A stretch of DNA of 64,000 bases from Phycisphaerae bacterium. GTDB taxonomy: Bacteria; Planctomycetota; Phycisphaerae; UBA1845. Shown one piece after another: positions 29,710 to 37,777 of this stretch. Made by a program: the position numbers and the translations under genes. The notes under the pieces are model-generated. The model ran no database searches. It was not told the origin of the DNA and saw only the letters and a program-made list of their open reading frames with translations. The stretch covers positions 14,950-78,949 of the forward strand of contig JAGFJJ010000069.1 in assembly GCA_024102815.1 (NCBI GenBank), read 5' to 3'. How positions within the stretch are numbered: the stretch's first letter is position 1; each line of letters starts with the position of its first letter.

Positions 29710-29925
29710 ATGCTGCGATACCGAGTAATCATCGAACAAGACGAGGACGGGCAGTTCGTTGCCGAATGCCCCACTCTGCCGGGTTGCGTCAGTCAGGGAG
29801 CAACGCGCGATGAGGCCCTGGCCAACATAAAGGACGCGATGAACGGCTACCTTGAAAGCCTTCGCAAGCACGGCGAGCCGATCCCGCCGTCGATATGGGA
29901 AGAGACGGTGGAGCTGCCGGATTGA
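29710..29925 (+). CDS. hicB: HicB-family antitoxin (type II TA, UPF0150)
   Basis: YRVIIEQDEDGQFVAECPTLPGCVSQGATRDEALANIKDAMNGYLESL is the canonical HicB N-terminal RNase-H-like fold motif; GGGAGG RBS. Confidence 0.75.
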   Translation: MLRYRVIIEQDEDGQFVAECPTLPGCVSQGATRDEALANIKDAMNGYLESLRKHGEPIPPSIWEETVELPD

Positions 29926-30146
29926 CCCGCCTGCCGACCATCTCCGGTCGGGAAGCGGTCCGGGCGCTCCAGCAGCTCGGCTATGTGATGGACCACCAAA
30001 CCGGTGGGCACGTCATATTGCGCCATCAGGATCCGCCACATCGGCGCCTGACTATTCCGAACCACCGCGAATTGGCCAAGGGAACGTTGCGGGCGATCAT
30101 TCGACAGGCCGGACTGACCGTGGAGGAGTTCGCTGCGCTACTTTGA
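29922..30146 (+). CDS. hicA: HicA-family mRNA interferase toxin
   Basis: LPTISGREAVRALQQLGYVMDHQTGGHVILRH...NHRELAKGTLRAIIRQAGL matches the HicA dsRBD-like fold (GSHH..H...VPxHxx.lk.gTL..IlkQAGL). TTG start overlapping the hicB stop (alternative ATG at 29895). Confidence 0.7.
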   Translation: MTRLPTISGREAVRALQQLGYVMDHQTGGHVILRHQDPPHRRLTIPNHRELAKGTLRAIIRQAGLTVEEFAALL

Positions 30147-30545: not shown

Positions 30546-31319
30546 ATGTTGGTGATCGCATCAATCGTCACGATTCTCGCCGCGGCCGAAGCGAGCCTCT
30601 CCGCCCTTCCGGCCGTCTACATCGTCTGCCTGATCGTCGGCGGAGGATTGCTCCTCGTGTCCCTCCTGGCAGGGGGAGGTTCGGAGCACGCCGCCAACGC
30701 CGATCTTACTGGTGACGTGGGCGGCGACGTGGCCATTGCTCCCGATGCGGGTATGGACGTGGGGCACGACTTCGGGGGACATGGCGACCTGGATGCCGGT
30801 CACGCCGCCGACCTCGGCAGCGCCGACGGCCAAGCCGCTGTCGCCGACCACGTGTCTTCATCTGCACTATCTCTGGCCAGTTGGTTTTCCGTGCAGTTCG
30901 TGGTCTATGCCCTCGCCGTGTTCGGCCTGATTGGAACGACGCTCACCTACCTGACCAGTGTTCCGCCATTCACCGTGCTTGTCGTCGCCGCGGCGGTCGG
31001 GCTCCTGCTCGGCCAGGGGGTTCACCAGGCCATGCGGGCCCTGAAGCGCTCGGGTATCAGCAGCGAAATCACCAGTCGTGATTTCCTCCACCAACCCGCC
31101 CGGGTAAGCGTACCCATCGATCCCGGCCGGCGGGGTGAAGTAGCCGTGGCGCTGCGCGGCGGAGAGCGATTCGTCGCCGCCGTCGCCCGCCGGCCGGACG
31201 ACCGGTTTCGCACGGGGGATCGCGTCATCGTCGTGGGATTTCAAGCCGGCGTGGCCGTCGTCACCACGCGGGAAGAGTTCGCTTTCGTAACCGGTCAATC
31301 GACGGAGCAGAACACATGA
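30546..31319 (+). CDS. NfeD-family membrane protein (flotillin-associated)
   Basis: N-terminal TM helices and C-terminal OB-fold-like soluble domain; stop overlaps the flotillin start (ATGA at 31316-31319). Confidence 0.65.
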   Translation: MLVIASIVTILAAAEASLSALPAVYIVCLIVGGGLLLVSLLAGGGSEHAANADLTGDVGGDVAIAPDAGMDVGHDFGGHGDLDAGHAADLGSADGQAAVADHVSSSALSLASWFSVQFVVYALAVFGLIGTTLTYLTSVPPFTVLVVAAAVGLLLGQGVHQAMRALKRSGISSEITSRDFLHQPARVSVPIDPGRRGEVAVALRGGERFVAAVARRPDDRFRTGDRVIVVGFQAGVAVVTTREEFAFVTGQSTEQNT

Positions 31320-32686
31320 ACTGGGTCACATTGGCACAATCCGATGCGGCGGGAGCTGCGATCCTCATTGGTTTCGGCCTGTTGGTCGTGGTCGTCGCGT
31401 TCATCTCGCTGGTGGCCAAGTTCACGGTCGTGGGGAACCCCAGCGAGGTGCTGGTTATCAGCGGACGGCGCTCGGCCGACCAACTCGGCTACCGCACGCT
31501 CATCGGCGGGCGAACGATCGTCATCCCCATTATCGAAAAAGTCGATCGCGTCAGCTTGCGGAACATGCAGGTGGCGCTGGAAGTCAAGGCGCAGTCCGGC
31601 GGCGGGAAGATGATCCCCATCACCGTAACCGGCGTTGCCAACGTCAAGGTCTCTTCCGAGCCGGAGATTCGCGGAAACGCGATCGAGCGCTTCCTGGGGC
31701 AACACCAGGAGGTCATGGAGCGTGTCGCCCGCGAAACGCTGGAAGGCGGCCTGCGGGCCGTCATCGGCAAGATCACGCCCGAGGAAATCGTCGAAGACCG
31801 CGACAAGTTCGTGGCCACGGTGATGAACGAGGTCAACGACGACTTCCGCAAGCTGGGCATGGTCATCGACAGCGTGAACATCCAGAACGTCCACGACGAC
31901 GATCAGTACCTGGAGTCCATCGCTCGCAAGGCCTCGGCCGATGTTCGCGCCAGCGCCCGCCAGTTCGAGGCTCAGCGCAAGGCCGATGCCGACGTGAAAG
32001 AGGCCGAGGCTGAGTCCCAGGCACGCAAGGCGCGCGCGGAACGCGACGCCGAAGCTCGCTCGGCCGAAGCCGCGGGACATCAGAAAGCCGAGTCCGCCCG
32101 GCTCGGCGCGGAAAAGGCCATCGCCGAAGCCAACAACGCCCTGCGCATCCGCCAGGCCGAGCTCGCCCGCGAGGCGGCCATCAAGGAAGCCGAAGCTCAG
32201 GAGGCCGCCGCCCAAGCGGAAGAGGCCCGGCTGTTGGCCACGCAGGTGAAACAGGCCAACGCCGACCGCGACACGGCCAAGGCCCAGGCCGAGGGCGCCG
32301 CTTCGACCATCCTCGAAGAGGGCAAGGCTCGCGCTCAGGCCATCGAGCAGATCGGCGCGGCCATTCAGCGTCACCCCGATGCTCTCAAGGTGCTCCTTGT
32401 CGAGATGATGCCGGGCGTCGTGCAGGAATTGACCAAGACCATCGCCAACGTCGACCTCAGCGCCGTCACCGTGATCGACGGCGGCGACGGGCGGGCGATC
32501 AGCGGCGCCGCCCTCGGCCGGGCAAGAATGCTCGCGGAATCACTGGCGACGCTCGAGTCGGTGCTCGGCGTCGACCTGCGGGCCCTGACGCGCAACGTCG
32601 CGGAGAACTTGGTGCAGAAGTCCGACGGCAAGCCTCAACCCGCCGCCACGGTTATGACGACACAAGGTGCCGCCAAGCCGCATTAG
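31316..32686 (+). CDS. Flotillin-family (SPFH/band-7) protein
   Basis: N-terminal TM anchor, SPFH domain, long Ala/Glu/Arg-rich coiled-coil (EAQRKADADVKEAEAE...), C-terminal flotillin tail. Confidence 0.8.
   Translation: MNWVTLAQSDAAGAAILIGFGLLVVVVAFISLVAKFTVVGNPSEVLVISGRRSADQLGYRTLIGGRTIVIPIIEKVDRVSLRNMQVALEVKAQSGGGKMIPITVTGVANVKVSSEPEIRGNAIERFLGQHQEVMERVARETLEGGLRAVIGKITPEEIVEDRDKFVATVMNEVNDDFRKLGMVIDSVNIQNVHDDDQYLESIARKASADVRASARQFEAQRKADADVKEAEAESQARKARAERDAEARSAEAAGHQKAESARLGAEKAIAEANNALRIRQAELAREAAIKEAEAQEAAAQAEEARLLATQVKQANADRDTAKAQAEGAASTILEEGKARAQAIEQIGAAIQRHPDALKVLLVEMMPGVVQELTKTIANVDLSAVTVIDGGDGRAISGAALGRARMLAESLATLESVLGVDLRALTRNVAENLVQKSDGKPQPAATVMTTQGAAKPH
32523..32686 (+). repeat. 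Copy 1 of 164-bp direct repeat (native flotillin 3' end)
   Basis: About 88% identical to 36359..36522 by eye. Confidence 0.7.
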
Positions 32687-32710
32687 TTCGCTGCGCCCGC
32701 GTTCAGCTTC

Positions 32711-32734
32711 GGGCCCACGCGACCCAAGGGGCCC
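32711..32734. terminator. Candidate bidirectional hairpin between convergent flotillin and methyltransferase genes
   Basis: GGGCCC (32711-32716) ... GGGCCC (32729-32734), a self-complementary stem with a 12-nt loop, followed by a T-containing tract. Confidence 0.3.
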
Positions 32735-32735
32735 G

Positions 32736-33518
32736 TCAGTTCTTCCGCATGATATAAAACACATAGCCGAACGTGTCACCGAAGCGGTGGCAGATGTCGA
32801 TCTCGCGCTCGTGGTCCTTGAGCACTTGCGCGAGGTCGGCGTCGCGTGCGGCCTTGGGTCGAAACCGGGCAATGCGTCGTTCGATCGGTGTCAGGTACTC
32901 GTCCCACCAGGCGGCGCGGGGCAGCACAAAATGATCGATCAGGTCGAATCCCGCCGCGACGGCGCGAGTTTCGTTGCCGGCAATACCGGTCATGGGCGGA
33001 TATTCCACATTCCAGAAGGTCCGACACGCCGAGGGAGGATCGTCCACGAGCCACGTGGCCTCGCTCGCAACGACGATGCCGCCGTCCCGGAGCATCGGCC
33101 GCCAGAGTCGCAGGCCTTCCCCAAAGCCGACGTTGTAGATTGCTCCCTCGCACCAGATCAGGTCGATGCTCCCGGGCGGCTGGTCGAGCTCCTCCATCCT
33201 TCCGAGGCGCGTTTCCACCAGGTCGGCAAGACCCGCGTCGAAGGCAGCCCGGCGAAGCTGGCCGAGGAAGGGCTCGTGAATGTCGACGGCGACGATCTTG
33301 CGGCGCAGTTCGCGTGCGAGCACAAGGGTCTGCTTGCCCGGCCCGCACCCGACGTCGAACACACACAAGTCGAATGCGGGTTCCCGGCTTTCGGTTCCGA
33401 GCCGCGATCTGCCTGCCGCTGCCCGCGCACGATTCAGCGCTTCGAGCGTGGCCAAGTCGCTGCCCGGTCCCTCGCGGGGGAGATCGCGGTGCAGTTCAAA
33501 GAAGGCTTGCCAGTTCAC
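32736..33518 (-). CDS. Class I SAM-dependent methyltransferase
   Basis: Motif I VFDVGCGPGKQTL; post-I acidic loop AVDIHE; 260 aa. Confidence 0.75.
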   Translation of the reverse strand: MNWQAFFELHRDLPREGPGSDLATLEALNRARAAAGRSRLGTESREPAFDLCVFDVGCGPGKQTLVLARELRRKIVAVDIHEPFLGQLRRAAFDAGLADLVETRLGRMEELDQPPGSIDLIWCEGAIYNVGFGEGLRLWRPMLRDGGIVVASEATWLVDDPPSACRTFWNVEYPPMTGIAGNETRAVAAGFDLIDHFVLPRAAWWDEYLTPIERRIARFRPKAARDADLAQVLKDHEREIDICHRFGDTFGYVFYIMRKN

Positions 33519-33536: not shown

Positions 33537-36221
33537 TCACGGCCGCCCGTAGGCCGATCCCGAAGAAGCCTTGGCATGCTTCCGGATGAGCACGCTGGCA
33601 GCAGTAAGCAGCAGCAGCACCGACGCAACCAAGCCCCAATCGCCCAATGCCGGGACTTCGAACAAACAGGGGACGAACGACGGCGGATCGCCTGCGCCGC
33701 CCCACATGTCGACGAAGCGGCTCCAATCATCGCAGTCGATGTCTCCATCCCCATCAACGTCGCCCGGCGTACATTCCGGTGGGAGCGGGTCTCCCTCCGG
33801 TCCGGTGAAGCAGTCTCCGAAAGCGACAAAGTCCTCCTCGTCGACGACACCGTCTCCATCAAAGTTGAACGGGATGTCCGCGGGAATGTCGACCGTGAAA
33901 ATTCCGCGTCCGTGCGTTACCGCAAGCAGCGTATGCGAGTGATGCATGAACAGCAGGTCATCGACGCTGGCGTTGGCCGGACCTTCGTTCTGGGTGGACC
34001 AGGTTGCCCCGCCGTCGGCCGAGGCAAAGACGCCCACTTCCGTACCCGCATACAGCCAATCCGATCGGTTGGGATGGCGGGCGAGTCCATTGATCGGCGC
34101 GTCGGGCAGTCCCGTCGGACCGTCTCCCGTGATGTCCGCCCACGTGACGCCGTGGTCTTCCGTTTTCCAGAGGTTGTCTTCGGAAAACCCTCCGAAGCTG
34201 ACGTAGACCACGTCGGGATCATCCGGGTCGATCAGGATCCGCTCGACGTACCGATTGGGCAGGGGGTTGGCACTGCCGTTGTTATCGACGGCCGACCATG
34301 TTGGGGTGCCGGCCGTTCCGTTCGCCGTTCGATGGACCTCGCCGTTGTTCTGGCCGATCCAGATGACGTTCGAGGATCCCGGTGCCACGGCGATGGCGCT
34401 GATGTAGTCCGAACCGGGCCCGCGAATGGACTGCCACGCGGGCGTGGATGCCTTGACGTTATTGCTCCTCCAGAGGCTTGCGCCGCCGGCCAGCATCGTG
34501 TTCGCGTTGTTGGGGTCGAGGACAAAGGGGGCGACGAAGTTCGCGCTGGCACCGGCGTCGGCGATGCCACTGTAAATGTACTGTGCCGAGAGCCCGCCGT
34601 CGGTCGAACGGTGGATTCTCAAATTGACATATTCGCCGTAGCAGTAATTCGCGTTCGTTGCGTCGATGGCGCAGAACCCGCCGTCTCCCCCGAATGTCAA
34701 ATGGGCTTGGTCGTTGCCGGCGGCAAGCCGCAATGTTCCGTTGTCCTGGGTTCCGCCCAGGATTCGCCCGCTTGGTCCGTCGCCGGCGGCGGCGTAGAAC
34801 TGCACCGTGCGGTAGGATGCGTCGAGCTTCGCCCAGCCGGACGTGGTCGAGGCGGTGTAGATGTCTTCCGTACGCCAGACGCCTCCATCCGTGCCGACGT
34901 ACACCGCCTTGTTGTTGATGCCGTCGAACCCCGGGTCGCCCGTGATGACGTGATTGTCCACGTGCGGCTGCTGGCTCATGATGTACCCGGCGCTGATCTG
35001 CGTCAGGTGCGCGCCGCCGTCCGTGCTCTTGTAGAAGTTGTATCCGCCGGTCACCAGGAAATCGGGATTCGTAGGATCGACCCACAACGGGTTGGCATAC
35101 CAGCTCACGCCGCTGCTCTGCGACGCAACGGTGCGAAGTTCGTAGCTCTGTCCGCCATCGATCGATCGCCAGATCTTACCACCGTCTGCCGCGGCGGACG
35201 CGTAGACGATATCCGGCTGGCTCGGCGCATAGGCGAGCTCAATGCGAGAGTAGAATCCGTATACGCGGCTGAGTCCGCCGGCGCACGTGTTCCATGAGAG
35301 CCCTCCGTCGGTCGAATAGACCGCGCGGTGAAACTAGTCTCCCACATCCCAGTCGTAGTCGAGGATATGGCCCACCGCGTTGTTCCCGTTGGTGGGGTCG
35401 TAGGCCACGTAGTACGAACCCTGGGCCGGAAGCGGATTCGTCCACGTCCGGCCGCGATCGGTACTTCGTCGAATGCCGCCGTAGAGTGTGGCCGCGAGCA
35501 ACGTGTCGGGGACATCCGGAGAAACCGCGATCCGGTTGACGTTTTCCCAATTGGCCGTGCTGAGCAATGGAAACCAATTGACCCCGCCGTCCGTTGATCG
35601 GTACACGCCGGCACCGCCCAATGCGTCCCCGTTAAAGAACCCCTCACCGGTTCCGGCGTAGAGCAAGTCCGGATCCAGCGGGCTGATGGCCATCGAGCAG
35701 ATGGCCAGATTCGGGAGCCAGTCATTCACCGGAGCCCAGGTCGCTCCGCGGTCAACACTCTGCCAGATGCCCCCGCTGACCGCCCCGGCCCAGAGCGTGT
35801 TTGGATCAAGGGGATGAATAACAAGCGAACGTGTCCGCCCGCCGACGTTGTTGGGGCCGCGCTCCATCCACTTGTCGGGATCGATGCCGGCCAGCGTCTT
35901 GTCGGGTTGCGCCAGCCAGAAATCCGCGTTGGCCTCTCGCTGCGCAAGGGCAATACGCAACGCGTCCTTGGCAATCTCCCCATTCTCGTCCCTCCAGCGC
36001 AGGCGGCGCCAACGCATGGCCTCATCTGGATGAGTGGCGCGTTCAGGCTTGCCGACGGACGGGCCTCGAACCGGGTCGGGGGCCGGCGCCGGTTGAACGG
36101 AAGCGCGGTTCGGAGAGGTGGTGTCCGGAACAAGGAAATCGGGCGCGGGGGCGATGATCGCCGCTGCGATGACAACCAGCCCGATCGCCGCAAACAAAAG
36201 TTGTGTGTGTCTCTGCACCAT
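33537..36221 (-). pseudogene. BNR/Asp-box repeat surface protein (about 894 aa) interrupted by one in-frame TAG at 35334-35336
   Basis: ORFs 35334..36221 and 33537..35108 share a frame (36221-35108 = 1113 = 3 x 371). Translation across the TAG continues ...DYDWDVGD*FHRAVYSTDGGLSW... with BNR motifs (S-x-D-G-G-x-W) on both sides. N-terminal signal anchor; C-terminal dockerin-like GDVDGDGDIDCDD and TM anchor. Confidence 0.6.
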
Positions 36222-36358
36222 CGCCTCCCAGTCACTTCCCGGCGGCTACCCGGGCTGGGTTTTCCATCTTAACCGACCCGAAATCGAACACAAAGCAATG
36301 AAAGGCGCGGCAAGGGCGGCTTCAATTCATACGTTATTGTCGTGGCTCTGAAAGCCGG

Positions 36359-36522
36359 CAAAAATGCTCGCGGAATCACTGGCAACGCTCGAGTCGGTGC
36401 TCGGCGTGGACCTGCGGGCCCTGACACGTAGCATTGCGGAGAACCTCGTGCAGAAGTCCGGCAGCAATCCTCAACCCGCCGCCACGGTCATGACTTCGCA
36501 GGGAATCGCCAAGCCGCACTGA
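36359..36522 (+). repeat. Copy 2 of 164-bp direct repeat
   Basis: Near-duplicate of the flotillin 3' end (32523..32686). Confidence 0.7.
36364..36522 (+). pseudogene. Flotillin C-terminal gene fragment (52 codons)
   Basis: Encodes MLAESLATLESVLGVDLRALTRSIAENLVQKSGSNPQPAATVMTSQGIAKPH*, versus the flotillin C-terminus ...RMLAESLATLESVLGVDLRALTRNVAENLVQKSDGKPQPAATVMTTQGAAKPH*. Confidence 0.55.
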
Positions 36523-36634
36523 TCTGCTGCAGCCGCGCGGACTGGAATCGGCGGCTCAGGAGATGGTCCGCACCGCGGAACCTGGCCCGAGTATGCCCAC
36601 GCTTCGTTGCGAACCGTGGGCATAGCACCCGGCA

Positions 36635-37621
36635 CTAAGCTGGAGCTGACCGGTGGAGTCTGTATACCGCAATGCCGGCTCCGACGATGAGTAGGGCCAT
36701 GGCGGCGAGCCCCCATTCAGAGTTGGCTGGAACGTCCCCACAAGATCGAACAACCGCATCGTCTACCTTGATCGTGGCCACAAATTCGCCTGTCACGAGT
36801 GTCTCGATGTCCGTGCGGTTGTCCGGTGTTTGTCCCTCTGGTATTTCAAGCGGCGCCTTGTGGAGACCGTATTGGAGTGCGTCAGAGAAGTACAAGACAC
36901 CACGGGTTGAGTCGATCGCAAGGGCGTATGGATTCGTGAACCCGGTACCGGGACGAATCAGATCCTCAACATTCGAACCATCAAAGTCAGCCCGCTGGAG
37001 TTTCCCCTGCTGCGTAGTGCCAACACCCTGATCAGTCCAATACAGCTTTCCGCGGTGAATATCCAGAGCCACGTCGCGCTCTGCGACAAGGCCTGTTACC
37101 AGCAACGCGATTCCCATACCGTCGAAGTTGACGCGCCTAACCTCGCCGGCGTGCGTGAAATACAATTGCCCTGCGCAGACATCGAGGTCAATCCACCCGG
37201 GGCCCGAACCCTCAACGAAGTCGAGGACAAGCTCTACTTGAGACCCATCGAGATTAGCCCGTTGTATGTCACCACCGCCGTCAGACCAGTACATCTTCCC
37301 GCCGATGAGGTCAAGTGCGATGTCATGGAGATTGCCAGGCAGGCCGCTTACGAGAGTTTCCGCGGTACTCCCATCAAGGTAAGCTCGCTTAATGTCACCT
37401 CCATCCGTCCAGTAAACGTAGCCACCATCAACATCAACAGCAACTCCGGAGCCCGTATCGATGGATGCGATCACGTCTTCGATATTCGATCCATCGAAAT
37501 CGGCCCGGCGGACGGCGTGACCGTTGCTCCAATAGACTTTGCCAGCGCTTGCCTCATGCCAACCTCCAACAACCACAAATGTGACCGCGATGAAGCGAAG
37601 TATCCCGTTGGTTGGTGTCAT
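36635..37621 (-). CDS. YWTD/LDL-receptor class-B-type beta-propeller repeat protein with C-terminal TM anchor
   Basis: Six repeats containing KVYWSN, YVYWTD, KMYWSD, LYFTH, KLYWTD, LYFSD; N-terminal signal; C-terminal hydrophobic LAAMALLIVGAGIAVYRLHR. Lower GC than surroundings. Confidence 0.6.
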   Translation of the reverse strand: MTPTNGILRFIAVTFVVVGGWHEASAGKVYWSNGHAVRRADFDGSNIEDVIASIDTGSGVAVDVDGGYVYWTDGGDIKRAYLDGSTAETLVSGLPGNLHDIALDLIGGKMYWSDGGGDIQRANLDGSQVELVLDFVEGSGPGWIDLDVCAGQLYFTHAGEVRRVNFDGMGIALLVTGLVAERDVALDIHRGKLYWTDQGVGTTQQGKLQRADFDGSNVEDLIRPGTGFTNPYALAIDSTRGVLYFSDALQYGLHKAPLEIPEGQTPDNRTDIETLVTGEFVATIKVDDAVVRSCGDVPANSEWGLAAMALLIVGAGIAVYRLHRSAPA

Positions 37622-37777
37622 TGCCCGCTCCTTCACCGGGAATTTCAGCGGATTCGACCTGCAACCATGGCCCTTTCCGTCGATACAGCAAGGCGAAGCA
37701 GTCTGCATTCTATGGCGAGTCGATTTCGGCAAAGCTCTCTTACCAGCATCGTCACCAGGCCCACGGTGCCTCGCAAA

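What the first reader, a model, noticed from the sequence alone, without database searches (positions are those of the whole stretch)
33537..36221. Large BNR-repeat surface protein split by a single in-frame amber codon
ORFs 35334..36221 and 33537..35108 are in the same frame. The only interruption is TAG at 35334-35336 (minus strand, within ...GGAGACTAGTTTCAC...). BNR motifs continue immediately after the stop (YSTDGGLSW), and both halves have coding-like composition. TAG is used as a normal stop elsewhere in the window (e.g. ferritin ends with TAG), so reassignment is unlikely. This is a very recent nonsense mutation (young pseudogene), a sequencing/assembly error, or low-level readthrough. 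The intact protein would be about 894 aa with N-terminal signal anchor, BNR propellers, a dockerin-like DGDGDID Ca-binding repeat and a C-terminal TM anchor plus basic tail (VPALGDWGLVASVLLLLTAASVLIRKHAK) that loosely resembles a PEP-CTERM variant.
Basis: seen in the sequence. Interest (0 to 1): 0.55.

Follow-up and report, generated by a model that had tools for sequence, protein, structure and literature searches.

The report
Surface propeller gene broken by nonsense mutation
A gene for a large secreted beta-propeller protein in an uncultured Phycisphaerae bacterium carries one recent TGG-to-TAG (Trp-to-stop) mutation that an almost identical sister strain lacks, so it is an ordinary young pseudogene, not a recoding event.

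Summary
Window 33537..36221 (minus strand) is one 895-codon frame with a single internal stop, TAG at 35334-35336 (codon 296). More than 6,800 homologues are uninterrupted proteins of about 820-850 aa. In 104 of the 107 homologues with a residue in that column, it is Trp (motif GDWFHRA). The decisive evidence is a sister strain (Logan assembly of SRR25685063, locus L013). It carries the same gene at 99.0% nucleotide identity, intact, with TGG at this codon. The other 25 differences are 18 synonymous and 7 non-synonymous (dN/dS 0.12 overall, 0.10 downstream of the stop). So the gene was under purifying selection until very recently. A second assembly (Logan, SRR13799154) reproduces the TAG in 13.6 kb of 100% identical sequence. 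TAG ends ordinary full-length genes in the window, so it is not reassigned. The stop falls after 3 of 7 blades of the first propeller of a GH74-like tandem propeller. The 523-aa downstream "protein" in GenBank has no signal peptide and starts 76 codons later, so it is probably an annotation artefact. Best reading: a strain-specific nonsense mutation, giving a young pseudogene. A sequencing error or low-level readthrough cannot be fully excluded without reads. This is ordinary and of low interest.

The parts
33537..36221 (-). Complete reading frame of the disrupted gene: 894 sense-codon positions, including the TAG, plus the terminal TGA. GenBank annotates it as two CDSs, J5J06_16450 (295 aa) and J5J06_16445 (523 aa).
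   Evidence: Names and accessions MCO6438685.1 and MCO6438684.1 are. The intact orthologue P0121/L013 1160-3844 is colinear without gaps.
35334..35336 (-). Premature TAG at codon 296. The ancestral codon was TGG (Trp), so this is a single G>A transition on the coding strand.
   Evidence: All 19 homologues in A1 have W, as do 104 of the 107 homologues with a residue in that column in A3. The sister strain L013 has TGG.
35337..36221 (-). Codons 1-295, the only part expected to be translated and exported. It holds the N-terminal hydrophobic helix (residues 2-22), a low-confidence linker, two helices (65-103) and the first three Asp-box blades (Asp-boxes at 155, 209 and 253).
33540..35333 (-). Codons 297-894, still fully coding-like but cut off from the start codon and signal sequence. 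It holds the rest of propeller 1, propeller 2, the Asp-rich Ca-loop-like repeats and the C-terminal hydrophobic tail.
   Evidence: the window keeps 97 of 99 columns that are at least 95% conserved downstream of the stop. dN/dS here against the sister strain is 0.10.
35106..35108 (-). GTG at codon 372, the first in-frame start codon after the TAG (76 codons downstream). It is the start of the annotated 523-aa CDS and probably only a gene-caller rescue.
   Evidence: Read directly from the sequence: no ATG, GTG or TTG in frame between codons 297 and 371, and no AGGAGG-like motif upstream. The product would lack a signal peptide.
34842..35879 (-). First beta-propeller, roughly residues 115-460, with Asp-boxes at 155, 209, 253, 303, 353 and 399. 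The stop lies inside it.
   Evidence: The model has pLDDT mostly 83-97 in this stretch. The fold matches GH74 tandem seven-bladed propellers.
33882..34841 (-). Second beta-propeller, roughly residues 461-780. The boundary is uncertain because the model is poor over residues 470-602.
   Evidence: Asp-boxes lie at 687 and 734, and there is an invariant FGGDGG motif at 510-515.
33696..33866 (-). Asp-rich Ca-binding-loop-like repeats (FDGDGVVDEEDF ... DVDGDGDIDCDDW). They resemble dockerin or EF-hand loops but score below threshold.
   Evidence: EF-hand models about 15 bits against cut-offs of 25-30, and Dockerin_1 10.7 against 22.9; dockerin_GC 13.9 against 29. Some homologues do carry PF00404.
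33540..33656 (-). C-terminal tail VPALGDWGLVASVLLLLTAASVLIRKHAK followed by 12 residues. It is a motif, a hydrophobic helix and a basic cluster, like an IPTL-CTERM or VPAMP-CTERM sorting signal, but sub-threshold.
   Evidence: TIGR04174 scores 13.6-17.3 bits against 20.5, and TIGR04513 scores 12.9-17.9 against 32. A helix is predicted at 863-886. The neighbouring gene 36635..37732 has the same kind of tail.

Best explanation
This is one gene for an exported, probably cell-surface-anchored, tandem beta-propeller BNR/Asp-box protein of 894 aa. It belongs to a large, uncharacterised family in Phycisphaerae and Planctomycetota with a GH74-like fold. In this strain a single G>A transition changed the codon of a nearly invariant tryptophan (W296, TGG) into the amber stop TAG. 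TAG is read as stop in this organism. Translation should therefore end after 295 residues, giving a signal or anchor helix plus three of the seven blades of the first propeller. That fragment cannot close into a propeller and is expected to be non-functional and degraded (inferred). The remaining 598 codons are no longer translated in any useful way: the next in-frame start is 76 codons downstream, has no obvious ribosome-binding site, and its product would lack an export signal (inferred). The event is very recent, because the downstream part shows no decay. It is a strain-level loss-of-function allele, that is, a young pseudogene. Shown here: the stop, its position at a conserved Trp, the intact TGG allele in a sister strain, purifying selection across the whole gene, and the use of TAG as a stop. 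Inferred: that the stop is real in the cells and not a read-level artefact, and that the fragments are non-functional.
For: There is a single in-frame TAG at 35334-35336. Homologues are uninterrupted, about 820-850 aa long and 59-66% identical across the junction. W occupies that column in 19/19 and in 104 of 107 homologues that have a residue there. An intact allele, P0121 (893 aa as called, 894 codons from the ATG), sits in Logan SRR25685063 contig 86424. Against it there are 26 differences in 2685 nt: TAG/TGG, 18 synonymous and 7 non-synonymous. dN/dS is 0.12 overall, 0.16 upstream and 0.10 downstream of the stop. Polarising the amino-acid differences with 119 homologues shows no excess of derived changes on the window lineage. 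Only A768V is window-derived, while V233A is L013-derived and T456S and V672A are probably so. The Logan assembly of SRR13799154 is 100% identical to the window over 13,572 nt, TAG included. TAG terminates genes whose Pfam domain matches run to the end of the profile, such as aminotransferase class III (profile 5-402/403, ending at residue 439 of 444), aminotransferase class I/II, ferritin and OEP. The flotillin gene ends with TAG in the window and with TGA at the same codon in L013. The stop lies inside the confidently modelled first propeller.
Against: No reads were available, so the base call at 35335 rests on two assemblies that probably used the same reads (SRR13799154). A mixed population carrying both alleles cannot be excluded. 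The complete absence of decay downstream is also what an error or an actively read-through gene would look like. The genome outside the window was not searched for an amber-suppressor tRNA, and the window itself holds no tRNA.
Confidence: 0.8

Rival explanations
1. The TAG is a sequencing, consensus or polishing error, or a minority variant fixed by the assembler. On this reading the real gene in this population is intact, with TGG.
For: The change is a single base. The gene downstream is perfectly preserved: 97 of 99 highly conserved columns are kept and dN/dS is 0.10. The only other known allele is TGG. The TAG allele is on record from one sample only (cluster 2 has one member on two contigs).
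Against: Two different assembly pipelines, the NCBI MAG and Logan, give the same base inside 13.6 kb of 100% identical sequence. The site is not in a homopolymer or a repeat. The window has no N and no other broken gene was noticed. From general knowledge, a consensus substitution error at normal short-read coverage is rare.
Confidence: 0.1
2. The stop is real but leaky. Near-cognate or suppressor-tRNA readthrough of UAG would yield some full-length protein, so the gene stays functional at a reduced or regulated level.
For: The downstream part is intact and conserved. Basal UAG readthrough exists in bacteria (general knowledge).
Against: The sister strain simply has TGG, and 104 of 107 homologues have Trp, so nothing suggests a programmed signal. 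The base after the stop is T (TAG-T). In E. coli that is the most efficient termination context (from memory, Poole et al. 1995; not tested in this phylum). TAG ends many normal genes, so an efficient suppressor would be costly. No tRNA lies in the window. The intact downstream sequence is equally explained by the youth of the mutation.
Confidence: 0.06
3. The locus holds two genuine, separately functional genes, a 295-aa N-terminal protein and a 523-aa C-terminal protein, as currently annotated in GenBank.
For: The GenBank record annotates two CDSs, J5J06_16450 and J5J06_16445.
Against: No homologue is split there. The sister strain has one ORF. The break falls inside a propeller domain, after 3 of 7 blades. 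The 523-aa ORF starts 76 codons after the stop, leaving 75 conserved codons untranslated, and it has no signal peptide.
Confidence: 0.02
4. TAG is recoded in this organism or gene, for example to pyrrolysine or by a reassigned code.
For: None beyond the in-frame TAG itself.
Against: TAG terminates full-length aminotransferases, ferritin, OEP and flotillin genes in the same window. The flotillin stop is TAG here and TGA in the sister strain. The homologous residue is Trp, encoded by TGG in the sister strain. This is the only in-frame TAG that interrupts a homology-supported gene in the window; other same-frame neighbours have their own ATG starts.
Confidence: 0.01

Closest known systems
Ordinary nonsense-mutation pseudogenes, that is, strain-specific loss-of-function alleles in bacterial populations
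   Same: A single base substitution creates a premature stop in an otherwise intact, conserved ORF. A near-identical strain carries the intact allele, and no other lesions are present.
   Different: Nothing of substance differs. The only gap is that read-level support could not be checked here.
GH74 xyloglucanases and oligoxyloglucan cellobiohydrolases (e.g. PDB 6p2m, 2cn2, 1sqj)
   Same: They share the overall architecture of two seven-bladed beta-propellers with Asp-box (BNR) repeats. Foldseek gives E 3e-27 and TM 0.6 normalised to the target over about 780 columns. The family profile hits GH74 chains at E 4e-19. The dual seven-fold propeller is described in PMC10317168.
   Different: Sequence identity is only 15-18%. 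The sequence matches cover mainly the N-terminal blades. The GH74 motif ARTDIGG aligns with AGAVSGG in this family, so Asp is replaced by Ser. That this Asp is catalytic is from my memory. No xyloglucan-related neighbours were seen. Enzyme activity is therefore not implied.
Sortilin/Vps10 domain (Pfam PF15902) and BNR/Asp-box repeat proteins; COG4447 'photosystem II stability/assembly factor-like' (Ycf48-like) proteins
   Same: Pfam PF15902 scores 64.8 bits (cut-off 33) and BNR PF02012 scores 30.5 bits (cut-off 27). JGI names homologues 'photosystem II stability/assembly factor-like'.
   Different: Sortilin has a ten-bladed propeller, and its solved structures match only weakly (E about 1e-3). 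Ycf48 has a single seven-bladed propeller. These names reflect shared Asp-box blades, not a shared function.
IPTL-CTERM, VPAMP-CTERM and PEP-CTERM-type C-terminal sorting signals
   Same: The tail has a short motif (VPALGDWG, compared with IPTLSEWG), then a hydrophobic helix, then a basic cluster near the C-terminus. The adjacent gene 36635..37732 has the same tail type.
   Different: Scores are below the curated cut-offs (13.6-17.3 against 20.5, and 17.9 against 32). Twelve more residues follow the basic cluster. No sorting enzyme was looked for outside the window.

Membership tests
Nonsense-mutation pseudogene (disrupted single gene) | Sequence on both sides of the stop is homologous to one continuous protein in relatives | tested here: met
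   Full-length homologues of 820-850 aa cover 85-94% of the joined frame, and alignments A1 and A3 run across the junction.
Nonsense-mutation pseudogene (disrupted single gene) | A close relative carries a sense codon at the position | tested here: met
   L013 (Logan SRR25685063) is 99.0% identical over the gene and has TGG where the window has TAG. Trp occupies the column in 104 of 107 homologues.
Nonsense-mutation pseudogene (disrupted single gene) | The codon is a genuine stop in this organism | tested here: met
   TAG ends genes whose domain matches run to the end of the profile. The flotillin stop is TAG in the window and TGA in L013.
Nonsense-mutation pseudogene (disrupted single gene) | The stop is supported by the sequencing reads and is not an assembly artefact | not testable with these tools
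   Only assemblies are available. Two assemblies agree, but they probably share the same reads.
BNR/Asp-box beta-propeller (Pfam PF02012 / PF15902) | Repeated S-x-D-x-G-x-x-W motifs and profile scores above the gathering thresholds | tested here: met
   Eight Asp-boxes were found. PF15902 scores 64.8 against 33 and PF02012 scores 30.5 against 27.
Glycoside hydrolase family 74 | Tandem seven-bladed beta-propeller fold | tested here: met
   The 25 best Foldseek matches are all GH74 chains. The first 23 have E 3e-27 to 8e-22 and TM (target) 0.51-0.63; two chains of an ancestral GH74 follow at TM 0.29. The model is only moderate: mean pLDDT 71, and poor over residues 470-602.
Glycoside hydrolase family 74 | Conserved catalytic Asp pair, with the N-terminal Asp in the motif ARTD(I/V)GG | tested here: not met
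   phmmer aligns 6p2m 'ARTDIGG' with 'AGAVSGG'. V148, G150 and G151 are invariant in the family alignment A1 and the position of the Asp is Ser. The catalytic role of that Asp is recalled from memory, and the second Asp could not be mapped.
F510_1955 family glycosylhydrolase (NCBIfam NF045728) | Score at or above the curated cut-off of 175 bits | tested here: not met
   The score is 125.2 bits, spread over 4 partial stretches of a 246-position profile.
IPTL-CTERM / VPAMP-CTERM (PEP-CTERM-like) sorting domain | Profile score at or above the cut-off | tested here: not met
   TIGR04174 scores 13.6 bits on the whole protein and 17.3 on the tail alone, against 20.5. TIGR04513 scores 12.9 and 17.9 against 32.
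IPTL-CTERM / VPAMP-CTERM (PEP-CTERM-like) sorting domain | A cognate exosortase-type processing enzyme in the genome | not tested
   Only the 64-kb window was available, and I did not scan its ORFs for exosortase.
Dockerin type I (PF00404) | Profile score at or above the gathering threshold of 22.9 bits | tested here: not met
   The C-terminal 124 aa score 10.7 bits, E 0.65. EF-hand models score about 15 bits against cut-offs of 25-30. Some homologues do carry PF00404.
Pyrrolysine or another TAG recoding | TAG occurs in frame at positions where relatives keep it or have Pyl or Lys, and TAG is avoided as a stop | tested here: not met
   Relatives have Trp (TGG), and TAG is a common stop in the window.

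The most novel reading that the evidence does not exclude
The truncation could be adaptive and not just a neutral accident. On this reading, losing an exposed surface propeller protein was selected in this population, for example to escape a phage or predator that uses it as a receptor. The locus does sit in a strain-variable segment between the flotillin and PEPCK genes. A less likely variant is that the amber codon is partly read through, giving a low, tunable dose of the full-length protein.
Probability: 0.08. Interest if true: 0.3.

Novelty: already known. Interest (0 to 1): 0.1.

Why it matters
It matters little biologically. It is a textbook single-base knockout of a non-essential surface-protein gene in one strain of an uncultured Phycisphaerae bacterium. 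It has some practical value. The two GenBank CDSs (MCO6438685.1 and MCO6438684.1) should be annotated as one pseudogene. The 523-aa entry also acts as the representative of a 90%-identity cluster and so hides the intact 893-aa protein, a small warning for users of clustered protein databases. The protein family itself has more than 6,800 members and a GH74-like fold, is often a lipoprotein, appears to lack the N-terminal catalytic Asp, and has no known function. It may deserve study, but that is separate from this finding.

Tried and rejected
1. TAG reassignment or pyrrolysine: rejected. TAG ends normal genes, and the flotillin stop is TAG in the window and TGA in the sister strain.

2. A suppressor tRNA nearby: there are no tRNA genes in the window.

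3. Two separate genes: rejected.

4. Other intact or broken alleles in JGI metagenomes: an exact 44-nt pattern with N at the mutated base, and a degenerate peptide-level pattern, both gave 0 hits.

5. Literature on the samples or locus tags (SRR13799154, SRR25685063, J5J06, MCO6438684): no paper found.

6. Function from gene neighbourhood: three homologues on long contigs share no neighbours. Flotillin loci in 11 related genomes share only NfeD-flotillin.

7. Paralogues in the window: none.

8. Which of the two flotillin 3'-end copies is ancestral: comparing both with relatives did not discriminate.

9. Literature confirmation of the GH74 catalytic residues: the two papers I opened did not state them. 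That point rests on memory.

10. A suspicion that HicA is broken in the sister strain: checked, and it is intact in both strains.
Full report
**Observation**

The minus strand of window 33537..36221 translates as one frame of 895 codons. It has exactly two stops: TAG at codon 296 (window 35334-35336, context GGAGAC-TAG-TTTCAC) and the terminal TGA. The mechanical ORF list gives 35334..36221 (295 aa, ATG start) and 33537..35108 (523 aa, GTG start) in the same frame. From the base composition (62% G+C) I estimate the chance of 598 stop-free codons after the TAG at about 2e-8.

**What the gene is**

- **Family profiles.** Pfam finds Sortilin-Vps10 (64.8 bits, cut-off 33) and BNR/Asp-box (30.5 bits, cut-off 27). 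Eight Asp-boxes lie at residues 155, 209, 253, 303, 353, 399, 687 and 734.
- **Homologues.** A search of the 5.8-billion-protein collection found more than 6,800 homologues. The best full-length ones are 820-850 aa, 59-66% identical and cover 85-94% of the joined frame. Those that carry a source name are nearly all called Phycisphaerae or Planctomycetota MAGs.
- **Solved relatives.** A profile of 20 family members hits GH74 xyloglucan hydrolases best among solved structures (1sqj, E 4e-19).
- **Fold.** An AlphaFold2 model (mean pLDDT 71; high for residues about 130-460, poor for 470-602) matches GH74 first. The 25 best Foldseek matches are all GH74 chains. The first 23 have E 3e-27 to 8e-22 and TM 0.51-0.63 normalised to the target. 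That is the dual seven-bladed propeller architecture described for GH74 (PMC10317168).
- **Catalytic residues.** Membership of GH74 as an enzyme family is not supported. Identity is 15-18%, and the GH74 motif ARTDIGG aligns with the family's conserved AGAVSGG, so Asp is replaced by Ser. That this Asp is catalytic is from my memory, not from a source read here.
- **Other thresholds.** NCBIfam's F510_1955 glycosylhydrolase model scores 125 bits against a cut-off of 175.
- **Ends of the protein.** Many homologues have what looks like an N-terminal lipoprotein signal, with a Cys after a hydrophobic stretch (my reading of alignment A1). The window's protein lacks that Cys. It has a hydrophobic N-terminal helix (residues 2-22) and a C-terminal tail, VPALGDWG, then a helix, then RKHAK.
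- **The tail.** It resembles IPTL-CTERM or VPAMP-CTERM sorting signals but stays below threshold (13.6-17.3 bits against 20.5, and 17.9 against 32).
- **Asp-rich repeats.** The repeats before the tail score below the thresholds for Dockerin_1 (10.7 against 22.9) and the EF-hand models.
- **Neighbourhood.** Homologues on long contigs have unrelated neighbours.

The function therefore remains 'exported or surface beta-propeller, possibly glycan-binding'. That is an inference from fold only.

**What sits at the stop**

In alignment A1 all 19 homologues have Trp at the column of the TAG, in the motif GDWFHRA. In the 120-sequence alignment A3, 104 of the 107 homologues with a residue there have Trp. 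TGG to TAG is one G>A transition.

**The decisive comparison**

The 523-aa ORF is the representative of a 90%-identity cluster. The other member of that cluster is an 893-aa protein, P0121, from a Logan assembly of SRR25685063. Its contig (L013) carries the same gene without gaps as an open 894-codon frame.

- The two genes differ at 26 of 2685 nucleotides: codon 296 (TAG in the window, TGG in L013), 18 synonymous changes and 7 non-synonymous changes.
- Nei-Gojobori dN/dS is 0.12 overall, 0.16 upstream of the stop and 0.10 downstream.
- I polarised the amino-acid differences with 119 homologues. Only A768V is derived on the window lineage. V233A is derived on the L013 lineage, and T456S and V672A probably are too.
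- The window sequence keeps 97 of 99 columns that are at least 95% conserved downstream of the stop.

The whole gene was therefore under purifying selection for essentially all of the roughly 2.8% synonymous divergence between the strains. The stop is a very recent, lineage-specific event.

**Is TAG a stop here, and is the base call reliable?**

TAG terminates genes whose Pfam matches run to the end of the profile. Examples are aminotransferase class III (profile 5-402 of 403, ending 5 residues before the TAG), aminotransferase class I/II, ferritin and OEP. The flotillin gene 31316..32686 ends in TAG here and in TGA at the same codon in L013. Other same-frame neighbouring ORFs in the window have their own ATG starts and are separate genes. 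No tRNA gene lies in the window.

A second assembly, the Logan contig SRR13799154_11814 (L001), is 100% identical to the window over 13,572 nt and contains the TAG. That rules out an artefact of one assembler. It does not rule out a problem shared by the reads, which I could not inspect.

**Consequences (inferred)**

Termination at codon 296 leaves the N-terminal helix, a linker and three of the seven blades of propeller 1. This fragment cannot form a closed propeller.

The first in-frame start after the stop is the GTG at codon 372 (35106-35108). It has no obvious Shine-Dalgarno sequence, and its product would lack an export signal. The annotated 523-aa CDS (MCO6438684.1) is therefore most likely a gene-caller artefact.

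The base after the stop is T. In E. coli this is the strongest termination context (from memory), so I expect little readthrough.

**Verdict**

This is a strain-specific TGG>TAG nonsense mutation in a single gene, that is, a young pseudogene (confidence about 0.8). The rivals are:

- a read-level error or minority allele (about 0.1);
- functional readthrough (about 0.06);
- two real genes (about 0.02);
- recoding (about 0.01).

The phenomenon is ordinary and the interest is low.

**Side observations**

The gene pair made of the methyltransferase (32736..33518) and this gene is bracketed by a 181-nt direct repeat at 85% identity, 32521-32701 and 36357-36537. The second copy is a remnant of the flotillin 3' end.

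The region between the flotillin and PEPCK genes is rearranged relative to L013:

- L013 has an M48 peptidase gene between the flotillin and methyltransferase genes, and a 176-aa ORF upstream of the propeller gene.
- The window lacks both. It has instead the flotillin remnant with about 100 nt of its downstream flank (86% identical to L013 5950-6229), plus an LDL-receptor-class-B (YWTD) propeller gene (36635..37732) that has the same IPTL-CTERM-like tail.
- Mismatches pile up at the junctions.

Related genomes with 70-80% flotillin identity share only NfeD-flotillin. I could not reconstruct the order of events.

Noticed in passing
window 32521-32701 and 36357-36537 (+): A 181-nt direct repeat at 85% identity. 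The first copy is the 3' end (last 52 codons) of the flotillin/Band_7 gene 31316..32686. The second is an orphan remnant that still reads as a 52-aa ORF (36364..36522). Together they bracket exactly the methyltransferase gene and the broken propeller gene (start-to-start spacing 3836 nt). It looks like the trace of an insertion or recombination at the 3' end of the flotillin gene.
   Followed up: partly
window 32700-32733 and 36329-37775, compared with L013 211-1052 and 4649-6049: The two strains are 98-99% identical but differ structurally between the flotillin and PEPCK genes. L013 has an M48 peptidase gene and a 176-aa ORF whose only Pfam hits are weak, sub-threshold coiled-coil-type families. 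The window has instead the flotillin remnant plus about 100 nt of its downstream flank (86% identical to L013 5950-6229) and an extra gene. Mismatches are enriched at the junctions. The last 30 nt or so of L013's flotillin gene resemble the window's remnant more than the window's in-gene copy, so the gene end is mosaic.
   Followed up: partly
window 36635..37732 (-): A 365-aa LDL-receptor class B (YWTD) beta-propeller protein (PF00058, 51 bits) ends in VPANSEWGLAAMALLIVGAGIAVYRLHRSAPA. This near-threshold IPTL-CTERM-like tail (Pfam PF18203 18.5 bits against 20.8; TIGR04174 19.3 against 20.5) is of the same type as the tail of the broken gene. These are the only two such tails in the window, and the gene is absent from the sister strain's locus.
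   Followed up: partly
window 33537..35108 (-), GenBank MCO6438684.1 (J5J06_16445), cluster representative P0001: The 523-aa fragment of the pseudogene is the representative of a 90%-identity protein cluster that also holds the intact 893-aa protein P0121. The homology search therefore showed only the fragment. The intact allele turned up only when the cluster members were listed.
   Followed up: yes
window 36147..36221 (-), residues 1-25, compared with alignment A1 columns 1-60: Most close homologues have what looks like a lipoprotein signal, with a Cys after the hydrophobic stretch (for example LLVGCA, LLAGCS). This protein and its sister-strain allele have AAAIIAPAPD with no Cys, and uniquely among the aligned homologues they carry the C-terminal hydrophobic anchor. 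This may be a switch in the mode of anchoring.
   Followed up: no
residues 148-151 (AVSGG) and 510-515 (FGGDGG) of the protein; window about 35769-35780 and 34677-34694 (-): This large family has a GH74-like fold, but a conserved Ser aligns with the Asp of the GH74 motif ARTDIGG. It also has an invariant FGGDGG motif in the second half of the protein. It may be a non-catalytic or differently catalytic relative of GH74.
   Followed up: partly
window 29710..30146 (+): A HicB-HicA antitoxin/toxin pair lies upstream of NfeD-flotillin. Both genes are intact in the window. HicA is also intact in L013, although no gene was called for it there.
   Followed up: yes
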